Below are positions 268-61,902 of a DNA stretch of 64,000 nt, piece after piece. Positions within the stretch are counted from its first letter, which is position 1. Each line of letters opens with the position of its first letter. This DNA is from Eledone cirrhosa (taxonomy: Eukaryota). The stretch spans positions 3,534,001-3,598,000 of the forward strand of contig OZ024747.1 in assembly GCA_964016885.1 (NCBI GenBank). Direction: 5' to 3'. Made by a program: the position numbers and the translations under genes. The notes under the pieces are model-generated. The model ran no database searches, was not told the DNA's origin, and worked only from the letters and a program-made list of their open reading frames with translations.

Positions 268-672
268 AATTGTTTCTACTATTGGCACAAAGCCAGCAAT
301 TATCCCAGTACATTACTGGTACTTTATTTTATCGACCTTGTAAGGATGAAAGGCAAAGTTAACCTCGGTGGGATTTGAACTCAGAATGGCAAGGGCCGTA
401 ACTCTATATGTCAAAGCATGGCGTCCGACCCTCTACCGATTTGATACTAAATAATTATTTCTAGTATAGGCACAAGACCAGTAATTTGGGGGAGGGGAAA
501 GTTGATTAAATCGACCCCAGTATGTTACTTATGCTTTATTTTATCGACCCCGTAAGGATGAAAGACAAAGTTAACCTCGGCAAGATTTGAACTCAGACCG
601 TAAAGGGCCACAACTCTATGCTGCAAAGCATGGTGTCCGATCCTCTACCGATACTGCCAATCTACCTCCCTT
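268..672 (-). mobile_element. Two tandem tRNA-derived SINEs with Meta-domain-like core
   Basis: Minus strand has A/B boxes (ggcagtatcggtagag…ctgagttcaaatc) followed by gaggttaactttgcctttcatccttacggggtcgataaaataaagtaccagt. Confidence 0.75.
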
Positions 673-7158: not shown

Positions 7159-9537
7159 ATGTTACAAGTATATATATTATTGATTGTGAGTGTCATGTGT
7201 GAAACTGTTGATTTGACTTACCACGTGAAGGAAGGCAAAAGTCCTGGAACTATTGTTGGAGACATTTCATACGAGCGACATTTATTGGATAGTGTACCTC
7301 CTCAAGATCATGGTGTTATTACATATAGCCAACTACATGAAAGTCAAAATGGTGACATACAGCTGTTTAATGTCTCCAAGTCAGGAAAGCTCTACACTGC
7401 TATGAATTTAGACGCTGAATCTCTTTGTAAATATAATATTGAGTGCTTCAGAATGGTTGAAATTGCTGTGAAGCAAGAGGAATTCTTTTTGAAAATAATT
7501 GAAATAAAAGTAATTATTGATGATATTAATGATAATAAACCTGAATTTTCCCAACATCAAGTAGATCTTCAGTTTTATGAAACTGATGGCAAAGGAACAA
7601 CGAAATCAATACCAAATGCTATTGACAAAGATGTTAGTGTGTTGAATTCCCAGATAACTTATGTACTTCAGAATACAAATGATCCCTTTAAATTGTCTGT
7701 GTCAGAGAGTGTGATAGGCACATCAAAAAATGAAATAATTCTGAAGCAAGGACTTGATAGAGAAGTAAAAGATTTTTACCTTTTGGAGGTTATTGCAAAT
7801 GATGGTGGCTCGCCACCAAAACAAAGTATTTTAAAAATACGAGTAACTGTTACAGATGAGAATGACAACAGGCCTGTCTTTACACAGAATATCTATAATG
7901 TTTCATTAAATAAGAAAAATAGAAGAGTACAGCTTGTAGTTACTGTGTTAGCAGAAGATAATGATGTAGGTCAGAATGGCAAAGTTTCATATAGTTTTAA
8001 TTCCAAAACACCAGATTCTGTCATGTCTTATTTTGAATTGGACCCTAAAAATGGCAGGATTTTACCTCACAAAATTTTTCCTTTTGAAAAAAGACAAACC
8101 TATAAACTTTTCATTGATGCCACAGATCATGGCAGTCCTCCATTGAGTTCTACTGCAATTGTGATAGTTAATGTGCTAAACCAACAGAACAATGCTCCAA
8201 GAATTGATGTAAAATTTGTTTCTAAATCTGAAGGAAATCTTGTTAGCATTTCAGAAGGAGTAAAAGTTGGTAGCTTCATTGCTTATGTGAAAGTTATTGA
8301 TAATGACAATGGGCACAATGGAGAGGTTAGTTGTCTTCTAAAACATGAGAAATTTATGCTTCAAAGTCTAGGAAAAAATAAGTATAAAGTCGTTATTAAA
8401 AGTCTTGTCAACAGAGAATTAGAAAGTCACATGGATTTAAATATTGTTTGTGAAGATAAGGGATTTCCATCCCTAAGGACAGTGAGAAAATTTTCTATCA
8501 AAGTGATAGATGTTAATGATGTACAACCATACTTTACAAAAAGCACATTTAAATTTTTAACTTATGAAAATGAAGAACCCAATTTTCCTGTTGGGTTTAT
8601 TAATGCTACAGATCCTGATTTAGGCCTGGGAGGACAACTATCATATTCTTTGTTTGATGAACATGGCTATGTCCTTCCATTTAAGATTTCCAATTTTGGA
8701 TTTATTACAACAGCTCAATCTTTGGATCATGAAAAGCAAGATGTATACCGATTCAAGGCTTTGGTCAAAGATAATGGAACTCCCTCTCTTAACAACACAG
8801 CTAATGTAGTTGTTGAAGTTATGGATAAAAATGACAATGCTCCTTATTTTACATTCCCTAGTTTAAGCCCCTTTAGTCTAGATGTCCATTACCATCCCCA
8901 GACAAAAAGTGACATCACTGTGTTGAGAGCCTCTGACAGAGACAGTCATGCAAATGCTTTTTTGACTTATGAAATACTTGGAGGCAATAACAAACAATTA
9001 TTTACAGTCAACCCTTACACAGGAGTTTTATCTTTCTCTCGTACTGTATATCAAAATGATGCTGGATCATACGATTTAAAATTAGCTGTCAAAGACAGTG
9101 GTACACCAGTTTTATCAGCCACAACTACATTGTCTTTGACACTAACTGTTAGTAATACAACAGCCAGGATGTACACATCTGAGGACACAGAATCAGACAA
9201 CAGAATACATATTAATTTGATGATTATTATAGTAGTAGCAGCAGTGATAGTTTCTGTTGCTATTGTAGTTTCTGTGATAGTTTGTGTTGTCCACAGGAAA
9301 AATCAGAGGGATGCTAAATATGGTTATGGTGTCAGTACAAATAATGATTTTGTTGGAGAAAGGAGACCATCAGGCTATATATCTGAATCGATGTCATCTC
9401 AATATAATACACCAGTGACCATGATCTCTGACCACAATTCAACAAGAATCTCTCGGACTGTTCAATCTGGCTATAAACCAGGGCAAAGTTGGAAAGGATC
9501 TTCATCTGGGCTGCATAACCAAGATGTTACACACCAG
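7159..9537 (+). CDS. Protocadherin gene 1, large coding exon (signal peptide, EC1-EC6, TM, juxtamembrane tail)
   Basis: Cadherin motifs DINDNKPEF, LDRE, DENDNRPVF, DVNDVQPYF, LDHE, DKNDNAPYF; EC1 C-x5-C (CKYNIEC); TM IIIVVAAVIVSVAIVVSVIVCVV. A pyrimidine-rich acceptor ends at 7119, 39 nt before the ATG. Phase-0 donor CAG|GTGAAT at 9537/9538; the track ORF reads through the intron to 9573. Confidence 0.95.
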
Positions 9538-10469
9538 GTGAATATCATTTTTTTACTTTTGGATTTTTCTTAGTATTTTATTGATATTTCAGAAAAAAAA
9601 TGTTTTATTAAAAAATTTGAAAATATTTTCACATTGAACCTGTACTATTTGTATAAAGCAATTGTACTTTTTATTTATTTCAGCTTTATTGATGGGGATT
9701 AGTGGGGTTTATTAAGTAGAGTTAGATGAAAATCCTAATTAAGTTTCTTTCGTCATTTCATTTTCATCGACTAACATTTACATCAGTCATTTTCCTCAGC
9801 TGTAAGTTGGAAATTAATAGAAATGAAATTAGAACGATTTGGCAAAATTGATCTAGAATGATTAGGCGATTATTTACAATTATTTTCTGGACAATTATTG
9901 TACTAGATGATATTTGTTTGGGCTTGAAACCGTTTCTTAGCGTTTAGCTTCCAATAATATATTTTACTTAGTAATCAATGGCTTATCTCCCATCTACTGC
10001 CCTCTTTTGTAGGTAATGAATTGATAAGACAAAAATGCCATCATTCAGACCAGGAACATTACATTTTGTCATAAACAGTCGACTCATTCTGTTAGTACCA
10101 TTTCAGTACCATAGTAATTATAAATATTTATATGAATGTGTATGTGTGCTTTAAATTTATCTTTGAATATAGATTAATTTTTTAAAAATTTATCTAAAAA
10201 AATAATTTTTAAGAGAATTATATTTCCTAGAAATAATTGCTATTAAAAAGTAAAAAAAGGTAAATTAAAAAAAAGAATATTACTTTTTATTTGTTTTTTC
10301 TTCTAAATTCTTATTTCTATGAACCAATTGCTTTGTATCGAACTTATACACATTATTTCTAAAATTGTCTGTAGTTCTTATAACTAGTAGCACAAAGCTA
10401 TTTGGTTCATAACACTCTATTCCCCACTTTTATATTGAATTCTATGTTTCAATATATCGGTTCCAACAG

Positions 10470-10632
10470 ATAAGTGTTCAAGAGGCAGCTGTGACAGCTG
10501 GGGCTCGTAAAGAAGAACAACGTATGTTAATGACATGTGAGCACTTCAATGAAATGTTAGCAATATCTTCTCCAACTAACAGTGGTCATGGATCCACAGA
10601 AAGAAACACCGTTCACTATGAGACACTTCCAG
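10470..10632 (+). CDS. Protocadherin gene 1, second coding exon (cytoplasmic)
   Basis: Acceptor ttccaacAG, donor CCAG|GTATGT. The 163 nt are open in phase 0: ISVQEAAVTAGARKEEQRMLMTCEHFNEMLAISSPTNSGHGSTERNTVHYETLPG. NSGHGS resembles the DSGHG motif of protocadherin tails. The phase-1 end fits the next exon. Confidence 0.85.
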
Positions 10633-16455: not shown

Positions 16456-17378
16456 GTTTCTATTTATTGCCACAAGGGCACAAAAGAAGGGGACAAATAC
16501 AAAGGGGGGAGTTTACACAAAAGAACGAGTAAAAAAAACAAATAACAAATATAAAAGACAGACAGGCAGATAAATAGATAGATAGATAGATAGATATGTT
16601 TCTTTATTAGCCACAGGGGCACAAAAGAAGGGGACAAATACAAAGGGGGAAGTTTACATACAATAAAAACGTGTAAAATATTAACACAAATGCAATTTAA
16701 AAATTGGTCGATTTTCCCCAATAGGAGGAGATAGTTCATATGGGTAACACATACCCCGGAAAAAATGTGCAACCCTCATCTCCAGGAGTACGAAGAGTTT
16801 GTACTCCTTTCCTCTCCTCCTCCTTTTCCTCAACCTACAGGCTGATATAGAGAGAAGGCCCATTCACTCGGGCCATTCTTGCCACTTTCACCCACCTTTC
16901 ATAAAACTTGCTGGGGTACAGCACCTCTCTCTCCATCGTGATTTTTCTTCTAAAGTGGTATTTGAAAAAAAGAATCAGTTGTTGGCCGGAGAGAAAGGTG
17001 TCTGACCTCAGCCCTTTCAACCTTGTCCACCATACAACCTCTTTCGCCATAGCTATCACACAAAGGAAAACCGCCGCTCCTTCGTTTTTGAAGGAGGGTG
17101 GCGGTTTGATCATGACAATGGACTTGGTGGTCAACCGGATTGGTCCCACCCGCGACAATAGTTGTTCTACATAGCCCCACAGGTCGGTGATGCTCGGGCA
17201 GTGTATGAATGCGTGCGCGACGGTTTCTTCATCTTGCACACACCTCGGACAGATCTATATTGCAGGGTCCCTGCCCGGGCGCCCATGTCTGTAGAGCTTG
17301 TCTCGAACTGGTGGAGCTCCTCGGTAGCACTGCCAGGCCAGGGACTTTTGGAAGTTGTCCATCGGTCCCAGGCGGAAG
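16456..17378 (-). mobile_element. 5'-truncated L1/Tx1-clade LINE fragment
   Basis: Minus strand encodes the zinc-knuckle region CPRC..DEETVAHAFIHC and the C-terminal helical region typical of Tx1 ORF2. The 3' terminus is duplicated (about 16456-16518 and 16597-16658). Confidence 0.75.
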
Positions 17379-19704: not shown

Positions 19705-19967
19705 GTGTGAAAGGTGTCCAACTGAAAGTGACCCCTGATGCAGACAGAAAAACCTTACCTCAGGTTCTTAGCCGACCTAGAAATAGCAATCTTGCCATTA
19801 GCTCTTCTTACCAACCAAATGCTAATCAATTTAGTCAAACTAATAATGTTATAAATCTAAAGACAACCCAAGTGGATAACTCTAACATGCCTCCAACCTG
19901 GAATCTACCTATGCGGAACAGTTTTACAGCATACAATAAACCTTTACCCAAAGTACCATTTTCATGA
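19705..19967 (+). CDS. Protocadherin gene 1, last coding exon
   Basis: Strong acceptor tttcttctttgcAG. The phase-1 join (G|GT) continues in the frame of ORF 19686-19967: GVKGVQLKVTP...WNLPMRNSFTAYNKPLPKVPFS*. Confidence 0.8.
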
Positions 19968-29067: not shown

Positions 29068-29900
29068 GGAGATAGTATCAGCACCAGGAAAGATCAATGG
29101 AAGTATTGTTTCCTCAGTCCGATCTGATGGGTTCTCCCTTATTTGGGAGACAGTATCAGCAACAGGAAAGATCAATGGAAGTATTGTTTCCTCAGTCCGA
29201 TCTGATGGGTTCTCCCTTATTTGGGAGACAGTATCAGCAACAGGAAAGATCAATGGAAGTATTGTTTCCTCAGTCCGATCTGATGGGTTCTCCCTTATTT
29301 GGGAGACAGTATCAGCAACAGGAAAGATCAATGGAAGTATTGTTTCCTCAGTCCGATCTGATGGGTTCTCCCTTATTTGGGAGACAGTATCAGCAACAGG
29401 AAAGATCAATGGAAGTATTGTTTCCTCAGTCCGATCTGATGGGTTCTCCCTTATTTGGGAGACAGTATCAGCAACAGGAAAGATCAATGGAAGTATTGTT
29501 TCCTCAGTCCGATCTGATGGGTTCTCCCTTATTTGGGAGACAGTATCAGCAACAGGAAAGATCAATGGAAGTATTGTTTCCTCAGTCCGATCTGATGGGT
29601 TCTCCCTTATTTGGGAGACAGTATCAGCAACAGGAAAGATCAATGGAAGTATTGTTTCCTCAGTCCGATCTGATGGGTTCTCCCTTATTTGGGAGACAGT
29701 ATCAGCAACAGGAAAGATCAATGGAAGTATTGTTTCCTCAGTCCGATCTGATGGGTTCTCCCTTATTTGGGAGACAGTATCAGCAACAGGAAAGATCAAT
29801 GGAAGTATTGTTTCCTCAGTCCGATCTGATGGGTTCTCCCTTATTTGGGAGACAGTATCAGCAACAGGAAAGATCAATGGAAGTATTGTTTCCTCAGTCC
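29068..29900. repeat. 78-bp minisatellite, about 10.7 virtually identical copies
   Basis: Unit ggagacagtatcagcaacaggaaagatcaatggaagtattgtttcctcagtccgatctgatgggttctcccttatttg. Confidence 0.95.
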
Positions 29901-53274: not shown

Positions 53275-53600
53275 AATGTTTCTACTTTTGGCACAAGGCC
53301 AGCAATTACCCCAGTGTATTACTGGTACTTTATTTTATTGACCCCGTAAGGAAGAAAGGCAAAGTTAACCTCGGCAGGATTTGAACTCAGAATGACAAGG
53401 GCCGTAACTCTATGCTGCAAAGCATGGCGTCCGACCCTCTACCAATACTGCCAATCCAACCCTCTTGTCTGATGGTAATAATAATAGTTTCTGATTTAGG
53501 TGCAAGGCCAGCAATTTGGGGAAGAAGAAAATAAATATCAACCCTAATACGTTACTGGTATTTCATCTTATCAGCTTCGGTAGGAATTAAACTTGAGCCC
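53275..53600 (-). mobile_element. Meta-like SINE plus a degraded second copy
   Basis: Full head and core in reverse at 53275-53465. Confidence 0.7.
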
Positions 53601-59496: not shown

Positions 59497-61902
59497 ATGA
59501 TTGTGAAAATATATGTTGCACTTCTATTAAATACAATGTCATGTGGGTTTGATCTGTCATACCATCTAAAGGAGGCTCAGAGGCCAGGAACTTATGTCGG
59601 TGACCTTGCTACAGATACAAACCTCTTAGATAAAATTACTGTAAAGGACCGTAGTGCAATTTGGTTCAGTCAGCTTCACCAGAAACAGTCTGACAGCAAT
59701 TCCCAGTTGTTTAATGTCAGCAAATCGGGTGAAATTTATACAGCTCAAAGGCTGGATGCAGAATCACTATGTAAATACAACTCGCCCTGTTTTAAAATGG
59801 TGGATATTGCTGTACAGAATCAACTTGCTTTCATCAAAATACTTGAAATGAAAGTCACAATCGAAGATGTCAATGATAACTATCCTGAATTTCCCACAAG
59901 AGAGATAGTTCTTCAGTTTTCTGAAGCTGATAAGAAAGGGACAAGTAAACCGATTCCAAATGCTATTGACAGGGACGTTGGTGTTCTCAATTCCCAGATC
60001 AAATATCAGTTAAAAAAACAAGGAAGCGAACCATTCATCCTATCGATTGTTAAAAAAGTGGATGGTAGTGCTAAACTTGGAATTGTTTTAGAGCAAGGTG
60101 TTGATCGAGAGACAAAAGATAATTATGTTCTTCAAATTATCGCTGAAGATGAAGGATTGCCACCAAAGAGTAGCTTTCTAAATGTGAAAGTATTGATTGA
60201 AGATGAAAATGATAATTCTCCACTCTTTAACCAAAATATTTACAATATTTCTATAAATAACAACCATCAGAAAAATACGCCTATTGTACATTTAACTGCT
60301 AATGATTTAGACATTGATCAGAATGGTAATGTCTCTTACCATTTTGCTTCAAAGACATCAAAAAATGACCGAATTTATTTTAAATTAAATGAAGCCACTG
60401 GTGAAATATTTTTGCAAAAAAATCTTTTGCAAAAGGCCAAAAAGTTGTATAAGTTATTTGTTGAAGCTACTGATGGGGGAAGTCCTCCTTTAAGTTCCAC
60501 AGCCATTGTTCTAGTCTATGTCATCAACCAACAGAACAATGCTCCTGTTATAGATATGAACTTTATTTCTCGATCAAAAGAAAATAATGCAATGGTTTCT
60601 GAAGCAATCAAAGTTGGAGGATTCATTGCATTTGTTAAAGTCACAGATGAAGATGTTGGTAGGAACAGTGAAGTAACATGTGACCTTCAGCATGAAAAAC
60701 TTCAGCTAAGAAGCCTTGGAAAGAATAAATATCAAATAGTTGTAAAGAATTTAATTAACAGAGAAACAGAAAACTATATTGAAAGTACAATATTTTGTGA
60801 AGACAAAGGATCTCCTCCTTTAAGAACTGAGAGAAAGTTTTCTATCAAAGTAAAGGATGTCAATGACATACAGCCTCAGTTTACCAAAGATTTATTCAAA
60901 TTCTTGACCTATGAAAATGAAGAACAAAATTTTCCTGTAGGTTTTGTCAATGCTACAGATGAGGATTTGGGACCTGGAGGTCAGCTGAGTTTTTCTTTAT
61001 TTAATGAAAGAAGTATCATTTTACCTTTTAAGATTTCTGATTTTGGATTCATTTCTGCAACTCAATCTTTGGATAGAGAGCGACAGGATATCTACAAATT
61101 TAAAGTTTTAGTTAAAGACAATGGAAAACCTTCTCTTAACAACACAGCTAATGTTATCGTTGAAATTATGGATAAAAATGATAACACTCCTTATTTTACA
61201 TTTCCTAGTGTTAACCCTTTCAATCTAGATGTCCATTACCATCCTCAGAGTAAGAGTGACATTACAACATTAAGAGCTTCTGACAGAGATAGCCATGTAA
61301 ATTCATTTCTCAGCTATGAAATACTTGGAGGCAATGATAAACAGCTATTTAAAGTTAACCCTTACACAGGAGTGTTGTCTTTCTCTCGTACTGTTTACCA
61401 AAATGATGCTGGATCATATAATCTAAAATTAGCTGTCAAAGACAGTGGTACACCAGTTTTATCAGCCACAACTACATTGTCTTTGACACTAACTGTTAGT
61501 AATACAACAGCCAGGATGTACACATCTGAGGACACAGAATCAGACAACAGAATACATATTAATTTGATGATTATTATAGTAGTAGCAGCAGTGATAGTTT
61601 CTGTTGCTATTGTAGTTTCTGTGATTGTATGTATAATTCATAAAAGAAATCAAAAGGAGAGTCATTATGGTGCTGCCCAAGACTATGTTGGTGAAAGACG
61701 GCCATCGGGATATGTTTGTGAACAAGACTCTCCAAAATATGATGTTCCTGTTGCAATTTTATCGGATCCAAAACAACAAGCAAGAAATACTCAAGCAAAT
61801 CTGATCAGACATGCTTGTCAACCTGATTATAATCCAGGACAAAGTTGGAAAGGATCTTCCCCTCATATTCAAGTTCAAAACAGAACAGCTGACTCAAGGC
61901 AG
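59497..61902 (+). CDS. Protocadherin gene 2, large coding exon (signal peptide, EC1-EC6, TM, juxtamembrane tail); 3' exons not resolved
   Basis: Paralog of gene 1 (DVNDNYPEF, VDRE, DENDNSPLF, DVNDIQPQF, LDRE, DKNDNTPYF, same TM). Acceptor ttttttctatttcAG ends at 59426; ATG in aaaATG context at 59497. Phase-0 donor CAG|GTAAGT at 61902/61903, homologous to the gene 1 donor. Confidence 0.95.

What the first reader, a model, noticed from the sequence alone, without database searches (positions are those of the whole stretch)
9077..9278. 202-bp perfectly identical tract shared by two otherwise diverged protocadherins (EC6 end to TM)
Seen: 9077-9278 equals 61424-61625 with no mismatch, including all third codon positions. 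EC1-EC3 differ at roughly half of their residues by eye, EC5-EC6 are similar but carry synonymous differences, and identity collapses after the TM. Established: vertebrate clustered Pcdhs show gene conversion homogenising membrane-proximal domains, with EC2/3 diversified for trans specificity and EC5/EC6 mediating cis-dimers. Inference: recent or recurrent ectopic conversion in an independently expanded cephalopod cluster, suggesting a convergent variable-tip/common-base design with promiscuous cis-multimerisation.
Basis: partly seen in the sequence, partly recalled or inferred. Interest (0 to 1): 0.75.

Follow-up and report, generated by a model that had tools for sequence, protein, structure and literature searches.

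The report
Octopus protocadherins swap shared membrane-anchor module
Two old, very different nerve-cell adhesion genes of an octopus-type animal share an identical 202-letter piece coding for the membrane anchor, as do about ten neighbours nearly letter for letter, most likely because these genes keep overwriting that one piece in each other (gene conversion), a process known from vertebrate protocadherins.

Summary
Confirmed: 9077-9278 equals 61424-61625 exactly, inside the large first exons of two six-cadherin protocadherins (A, B) otherwise 47-85% alike by domain. It is not a private pair: 12 genes (11 of 24 found on C7 1.97-5.16 Mb) share this late-EC6/stalk/transmembrane module, with 10% four-fold-site difference versus 50-61% in EC1-EC5 and the tail. 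Ten have one-to-one Argonauta orthologs with the same module carrying Argonauta-specific residues, and short-read contigs of three other species read other silent letters across their copies. So it is recurrent gene conversion, not cross-species invariance or an assembly artefact. Conversion in coleoid protocadherins was suggested in print, regional conversion is established in vertebrates, and this scan found it before in this genome's tight arrays. New here: short conversion islands with partner sets that persist among old, widely spaced genes.

The parts
7159..9537 (+). Protocadherin A, large exon 1 (signal peptide, EC1-EC6, stalk, TM, start of tail); donor site CAG|GT after 9537
   Evidence: ortholog P0001 (O. 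bimaculoides) and P0002 (Argonauta)
10470..10632 (+). Gene A exon 2 (own cytoplasmic exon)
   Evidence: tblastn with the P0001 tail, 91%; AG/GT ends
19705..19967 (+). Gene A exon 3 (own terminal cytoplasmic exon, to stop)
   Evidence: tblastn with the P0001 tail, 89%
59497..61902 (+). Protocadherin B, large exon 1; donor site CAG|GT after 61902
   Evidence: orthologs P0006, P0014
9077..9278 (+). Converted module in A: EC6 strand F (second half), strand G, stalk, TM (aa 640-707)
61424..61625 (+). Same module in B, identical to A
8128..8739 (+). Second conversion island in A (EC3 end-EC5 middle, aa ~324-527), shared with C7:2.384 and C7:2.515, not with B; identical runs up to 209 and 211 bp
   Evidence: collapsed unitig 8131-8739
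60445..60945 (+). Second conversion island in B (EC3 end-EC5 start, A-numbering aa 314-479; coordinates approximate), shared with C7:3.368; 347-bp and 148-bp identical runs
9087..9141 (+). 14-bp inverted repeat (13 Watson-Crick + 1 G.U) at the 5' end of the module; largely dictated by the codons of VKDSG/TLSLT; no covariation
9227..9268 (+). Second predicted hairpin, in the TM-coding part (coordinates approximate)

Best explanation
The 202-bp tract is one exact overlap within a late-EC6/stalk/transmembrane module shared by twelve old octopod protocadherin paralogs, and it is most likely kept alike by recurrent interlocus gene conversion among a fixed set of partners. Shown: the identity, its silent-site depth, the 12-gene sharing, one-to-one orthology of the flanks, species-specific letters spread across paralogs, and further islands (EC4-5, EC2-end/EC3, tail) with different partner sets. 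Inferred: an island that is still near-identical stays a substrate for ectopic recombination while the saturated rest of the exon has escaped; conversions into the ectodomain tip and the cytoplasmic tail are likely removed by selection because these parts are gene-specific, whereas strands F-G, stalk and TM are interchangeable. The module therefore likely marks tolerated interchangeability, not a selected cis-dimer surface.
For: Four-fold-site difference among the 12 genes 0.10 in the tract vs 0.50-0.61 in EC1-EC5 and 0.57 in the tail; 12 non-member C7 genes show 0.57 in the same tract. 10 of 12 members have an Argonauta ortholog by EC1-3 and tail; in the tract 8 of 10 Argonauta copies have V641 and 6 of 10 S661, found in 0 of 10 copies here; within-species paralog distance (0.042, 0.034) is below ortholog distance (0.050) only in aa 640-707 and (marginally here) 600-707. 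Silent letters 9120 C, 9153 T, 9183 G stand in 10, 11 and 9 of the 11 C7 members while all laid depth of runs X16 and X9 reads the other letter; 9168 G stands in 4 of 12 members including A and B, and in none of the laid depth of X4, X16, X9. In X16 one 113-nt unitig of depth 79 (other pieces 10-31) differs from the tract at 6 places. For the EC4-5 islands AU tests reject the ortholog tree (p 1e-4, 1e-8) while EC1-3 and tail reject the species tree (p from 5e-4 to 8e-58). All 55 C7 member pairs lose identity at aa 702-715, the TM end; A's tail is 100% and 90% identical to its orthologs. Sharing among 52 loose genes peaks at aa 680-695 (23 genes, six separate sets) and is nil at the three sampled positions aa 140-170. 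Short-read unitigs of A end 30 nt inside each tract boundary (8811-9106; 9249-9800; 0 differences).
Against: No rise of GC3 in the tract (0.14 vs 0.17-0.22), unlike fugu (PMC1852091 passages), though this is in effect one sample of about 36 sites. The tract changes a little less between this genome and Argonauta (0.050) than in 7 non-member orthologs (0.059-0.118), so some extra constraint is possible. Why stalk+TM is shared more than EC5 is not explained by tolerance alone. Gene B's own 3' junction was not seen in run X1 (all laid depth at 61633/61636 read other letters). Summed contig depth is not a copy number, and run X1 may be the assembled sample. The members were first collected by similarity to the tract, although two independent motif scans completed the C7 set. 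Whether the 12 are one clade is undecided (5 changes on the EC1-3 tree, AU p 0.10).
Confidence: 0.85

Rival explanations
1. Conversion is the process, but selection favours it: a shared strand-G/stalk/TM defines subfamilies that associate laterally in the membrane, or are trafficked or cleaved alike, through the TM or stalk rather than the vertebrate EC6 cis face.
For: Six separate partner sets each share stalk+TM; the largest persists in Octopus and Argonauta; slightly slower change between species; PMC7082078 (passages) leaves TM- or tail-based cis association open for delta-protocadherins.
Against: Self-perpetuating homology predicts stable partner sets without selection (inference); non-member genes keep their own stalk/TM equally well between orthologs (0.88-1.00); EC4-5 islands show the same persistence with no membrane role. 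No binding data.
Confidence: 0.2
2. One reading: homogenised base gives promiscuous vertebrate-type EC5/EC6 cis-dimers.
For: EC6 is the most alike ectodomain (aa identity 0.88 among members, 0.71-0.79 among others); the tight arrays do show variable EC2-3 and constant EC5-tail.
Against: Cis face is strands A, B, D, E; strand G is the opposite, glycosylated face (PMC5106212 section 15); tract starts in strand F. Positions matching L557/V562/R597 are D in 64, R or K in 69, S in 66 of 70 genes here; L557D is one of the inactivating mutants. EC5 is not homogenised among the 12.
Confidence: 0.08
3. A selected RNA structure or ADAR editing substrate (or a DNA hairpin that triggers breaks) in the tract constrains or drives the identity.
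For: Tract folds at z = -3.98; the two best-folding of 47 windows of B and two of the three best of 47 in A lie in it; chance of all five third-position pairs being Watson-Crick about 0.01 (post hoc); site 9098 (Ser/Asn, A/G) lies in the stem; editing is reported enriched in octopus protocadherins (bioRxiv 10.1101/714394, passages).
Against: No covariation across 37 non-redundant genes (column permutation p 0.46 and 0.27); most pairs are fixed by the amino acids; silent sites in and around the stem differ between species, and 9130 C>T turned a G-C into G.U across the members; EC4-5 island of A has no such hairpin; only a sub-threshold Rfam match (18.2 bits vs 50). It cannot by itself make paralogs share species-specific letters.
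Confidence: 0.07
4. Assembly or polishing artefact made the two copies identical.
For: Near-identical paralogs invite cross-mapping; B's 3' junction unitig was not seen in X1; no long reads were available.
Against: The assembly keeps the 12 copies distinct at many sites; unitig ends match A's boundaries exactly; X1 shows both letters at 9168 (33.5 vs 89.1 depth, assembly 4 vs 8 genes); same architecture in four other species' proteins.
Confidence: 0.03

Closest known systems
Regional gene conversion in vertebrate clustered protocadherins (fugu PMC1852091; Xenopus/mouse PMC4978886; Noonan 2004 seen only as cited)
   Same: Large first exon with EC1-6 + TM; 3' part homogenised at silent sites among paralog subsets; EC2 least converted; discrete boundaries.
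   Different: Here a short island bracketed by saturated divergence on both sides; partners are non-adjacent, interleaved over 1.5 Mb with non-members, and differ from module to module; genes keep one-to-one orthologs; own tail exons; no GC3 rise; vertebrate cis residues absent.
Coleoid protocadherin clusters (PMC9068888, PMC6339937, PMC9795677)
   Same: Multi-exon genes in head-to-tail clusters, whole-gene duplication; homogenisation by gene conversion suggested in one sentence each in PMC9068888 and PMC6339937.
   Different: The passages read give no tract-level or domain-level analysis; PMC9795677 dates expansions from pairwise distances and has 0 occurrences of 'conversion', so its dates may be biased by the process shown here (inference).
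Non-clustered delta-protocadherins (PMC7082078)
   Same: Cis-interface signature of beta/gamma clustered protocadherins not conserved.
   Different: Delta genes are dispersed and are not reported, in the passages read, to share converted modules.

Membership tests
Protocadherin | Six cadherin repeats, TM and tail start in one large exon | tested here: met
   best named homologs are octopod protocadherins
Coleoid clustered protocadherins | Head-to-tail cluster of whole multi-exon genes with own tail exons | tested here: met
   24 same-strand genes found on C7 1.97-5.16 Mb; gene A's own exons 2-3 in the window
Vertebrate alpha/gamma clustered protocadherins | Variable exons spliced to shared constant exons | tested here: not met
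   A has private tail exons; ortholog tails differ gene by gene; PMC9068888 passage agrees
Vertebrate beta/gamma clustered protocadherins | EC6 cis-interface residues L557, V562, R597 (gammaB2 numbering) | tested here: not met
   D585/R590/S625 in A by alignment to 5SZR (D585 sits beside a 3-residue gap); frequencies in 70 genes and 76 proteins of other species
Vertebrate beta/gamma clustered protocadherins | Cis-dimer formation and homophilic trans binding | not testable with these tools
Vertebrate clustered protocadherins | Stochastic CTCF-dependent promoter choice | not tested
   no expression or chromatin data examined
Interlocus gene conversion / concerted evolution | Silent-site identity in a tract between otherwise diverged paralogs, flanks not duplicated | tested here: met
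Interlocus gene conversion / concerted evolution | Paralogs group by species in the tract, by ortholog outside | tested here: met
   AU tests for EC4-5 islands; shared species-specific residues and letters for the EC6-TM tract; no AU test was run on the 68-aa tract itself
GC-biased conversion as in fugu protocadherins | Raised GC3 in converted region | tested here: not met
   0.14 in tract vs 0.17-0.22 elsewhere; arrays show no consistent rise
Conserved structured RNA element | Covarying base pairs or Rfam match | tested here: not met

The most novel reading that the evidence does not exclude
Old octopod protocadherins are organised in long-lived, module-specific exchange clubs: selection keeps a shared strand-G/stalk/TM within each club as a membrane-level subfamily code (lateral association, trafficking or shedding through the TM instead of the vertebrate EC6 cis face), while shared EC4 or EC3 blocks between genes with unlike EC1/EC2 would give planned cross-reactivity in trans.
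Probability: 0.2. Interest if true: 0.75.

Novelty: new variant of a known kind. Interest (0 to 1): 0.48.

Why it matters
It turns a one-line suggestion in the cephalopod genome papers into a mapped, cross-species pattern: conversion also acts on the old, widely spaced protocadherins, in short islands with stable partners. That warns against whole-gene trees and distance-based dates for this family, and it names natural chimeras (A/2.384/2.515 with one EC4-5; twelve genes with one stalk/TM) with which to ask whether cephalopod protocadherins use cis-multimers at all, an open question for convergent neuronal self-recognition.

Tried and rejected
Segmental or recent whole-gene duplication: rejected, EC1-EC5 silent sites near saturation and no flank homology. 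Cross-species invariance: rejected. Family-wide RNA hairpin: a codon-usage null looked significant but it wrongly lets Ser/Leu codon boxes swap; the column-permutation null shows no covariation. Rfam: one sub-threshold match. Distance effect among C7 members: none (Spearman 0.15, p 0.27). Outside donor for A's private letters just 5' of the tract: none among 70 genes (nearest 5 of 45 differences). Monophyly of the 12: undecided. Expression/editing: no RNA holder listed; only contigs were laid, so no test. Noonan 2004 and Albertin 2015 are not held; Albertin 2015's supplements may discuss conversion. The repeat finder was swamped by microsatellites. Look-up of earlier findings by the tract sequence returned nothing.

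Full report
Observation. The two stretches are identical over exactly 202 bases and mismatch on both sides. They lie in the large first exons of two protocadherins, A (7159-9537) and B (59497-61902), with six cadherin repeats, a TM and the start of a tail. A has two private tail exons at 10470-10632 and 19705-19967. By domain A and B are 50-60% identical in EC1-EC4, 76% in EC5, 85% in early EC6, 100% in aa 640-707 and 47% in the tail; 0 of 36 four-fold sites differ in the tract against 13 of 26 in EC5; the longest silent-identical run is 64 codons against at most 36 in 100,000 permutations. Homology does not extend into flanks. The best named relatives are Octopus and Argonauta protocadherins.

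It is a many-gene module. The window is G000:C7:3534001-3598000; a search with the tract region found ten further genes at 87-96% (40 of 217 candidates scored). Two motif scans from EC5 and EC1 completed a set of 24 same-strand genes on C7 1.97-5.16 Mb; a third scan counted 163 matches genome-wide and listed 100. I fetched 70 genes: 52 from the loose clusters on C7, C2 and C1040 and 18 of the roughly 90 listed genes of the two tight arrays on C2; several dispersed C2 genes were not fetched. Eleven of the 24 C7 genes plus C2:337.48 carry the module, interleaved with non-members. Among these 12, four-fold-site difference is 0.10 in the tract, 0.30 in early EC6, 0.50-0.61 in EC1-EC5 and 0.57 in the tail; 12 non-member C7 genes give 0.57 in the tract (C7:2.703, frameshifted, and C2:336.86, cut short by my start choice, were left out of the group averages). 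Among the 52 genes, 70 of 1326 pairs share an identical run of 60 bp or more; sharing peaks at aa 680-695 (23 genes in six separate sets), is nil at aa 140, 155 and 170 in EC2, and the A-B run is the shortest of 25 runs of 200 bp or more. All 55 C7 member pairs lose identity at aa 702-715.

Other islands, other partners. A shares EC3-end to mid-EC5 with C7:2.384 and C7:2.515, about 1 Mb away (runs of 180-211 bp), and B shares 347 bp with C7:3.368; 3.042/3.106/3.150/3.272 share EC2-end/EC3 blocks. So the loose cluster is not a simple variable tip on a common base; the two tight arrays are (EC2-3 variable, EC5-tail near constant), in line with earlier notes of this scan on other pieces of the genome (unchecked AI notes).

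Concerted evolution across species. By EC1-3 and tail, 10 of the 12 members have a one-to-one Argonauta ortholog among the 43 relatives compared (the search listed 120 of 347 hits, clustered at 90%, so Octopus labels are those of cluster representatives). In the tract 8 of 10 Argonauta copies have V641 and 6 of 10 S661, against 0 of 10 here. For the EC4-5 islands the trees group by species and reject orthology (p-AU 1.3e-4 and 1.3e-8), while EC1-3 and tail do the reverse. At DNA level, silent letters 9120 C, 9153 T and 9183 G are in 10, 11 and 9 of the 11 C7 members, whereas all laid contig depth of runs X16 and X9 (two other organisms) reads the other letter, which C2:337.48 also keeps; 9168 G is in 4 of 12 members including A and B and in none of the laid depth of X4, X16 or X9. 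One X16 unitig of 113 nt and depth 79 differs from the tract at 6 places, against 7-9% for A-like pieces elsewhere. The tool warns that summed depth is no copy number; the pattern, not the ratios, carries the argument. New silent letters that spread over many paralogs within one lineage are what recurrent conversion predicts and what selection on a conserved element does not.

Artefact check. In run X1 of the same species label, A's unique unitigs end at 9106 and start at 9249, 30 bases inside each boundary as a 31-mer graph requires, with 0 differences. Against: X1 may be the assembled sample, B's own 3' junction piece was not seen, and no long reads were on hand. B's flank residues and the shared module recur in its Octopus and Argonauta orthologs.

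Function. In the model of EC5-EC6 (pLDDT 83) strand F is aa 636-645 and G aa 653-664, so the tract is half of F, G, the stalk and the TM. In mouse gamma-protocadherins the cis face is strands A, B, D, E, mutants L557D, V562D and R597D break it, and strand G carries O-mannose on the opposite face (PMC5106212, sections 15 and 18 read, plus passages). Aligned to 5SZR these positions are D585, R590 and S625 in A, and D in 64, R/K in 69, S in 66 of 70 genes. Delta-protocadherins, which lack this signature, show no ectodomain cis binding, though TM- or tail-based association is left open (PMC7082078, passages). A vertebrate-type cis-dimer is thus unlikely to be what the tract preserves; binding itself is untested. 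My reading, inferred: islands that stayed alike keep recombining, conversions into gene-specific tips and tails are purged (A's tail is 100% and 90% identical to its orthologs), and F-G/stalk/TM is the most interchangeable part. A selected membrane-level role remains possible.

A side lead. The tract folds unusually well (z -3.98), with a 14-bp stem at 9087-9141 and a TM-coding hairpin; these are the best-folding windows of B. But pairing is mostly set by the amino acids, 37 non-redundant genes show no covariation (p 0.46), the EC4-5 island of A has no hairpin, and a silent change weakened one pair across the members. I keep it as a low-odds lead for ADAR editing or break formation.

What is known. 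Regional conversion of the 3' part of variable exons, with EC2-3 spared and GC3 raised, is established for vertebrate clusters (PMC1852091 and PMC4978886, passages; Noonan 2004 only as cited). For coleoids, homogenisation by conversion is suggested in PMC9068888 and PMC6339937 (passages); PMC9795677 (passages) dates expansions without it. Five searches of the held library (listings only, apart from the papers named) showed no domain- or tract-level study of conversion in cephalopod protocadherins; Albertin 2015 and its supplements, and Wang and Ragsdale 2017, were not seen. No date for the Octopus-Argonauta split was found (bioRxiv 10.1101/2025.05.16.652989, passages), so the age of the partner sets is given only as older than that split.

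Verdict. Real; a good example of recurrent interlocus conversion; the process is known in kind, the pattern of short islands with long-lived, module-specific partners among old one-to-one genes is a new variant. Interest 0.48.

Noticed in passing
L042 (G000:C2:337.48 Mb): A member of the module set on another scaffold keeps the letters read in other species at 9120, 9130, 9153 and 9183-equivalent sites: it seems to have stopped exchanging with the C7 members.
   Followed up: partly
G000:C2 237.7-253.6 Mb, C2 332-339.5 Mb, C7 1.97-8.6 Mb: Protocadherin clusters lie on two large scaffolds here, whereas PMC9795677 and PMC9068888 report one chromosome in other octopods; translocation or scaffolding not tested.
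   Followed up: no
L049, L052, L056; L044, L045, L050; L065-L067; L083, L084; L074, L075: Five further, separate sets share their own stalk/TM haplotype (identical runs 116-476 bp), one of them interleaved with the main set over 1.8 Mb.
   Followed up: partly
L055 (G000:C7:2.70 Mb): The 5' part of this paralog is split over reading frames (frameshifts or assembly errors); Octopus and Argonauta proteins P0026 and P0022 that resemble it near the TM are full length.
   Followed up: partly
L040 (G000:C7:3.272 Mb): This member carries a two-residue insertion and several private changes in the stalk despite the surrounding homogenisation.
   Followed up: no
window 29068-29900: 78-bp tandem repeat, 10.7 copies, 99% matches, open in three frames.
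   Followed up: no
window 16835-17254 (-): Fragment with a weak zf-RVT hit (E 0.0009, below cut-off), probably a decayed LINE inside gene A's second intron.
   Followed up: partly
window 18503 and 18753: 149-bp exact direct repeat 250 bp apart in gene A's second intron.
   Followed up: no
window 9459-9558: A third well-folding window (z -3.4, 40 shuffles) spans gene A's exon 1 donor site.
   Followed up: no
P0006/P0014 tails vs window 298-369, 53304-53378 and others: The annotated last exon of gene B's orthologs weakly resembles a repeat scattered through the window, suggesting an exonised SINE-like element.
   Followed up: no
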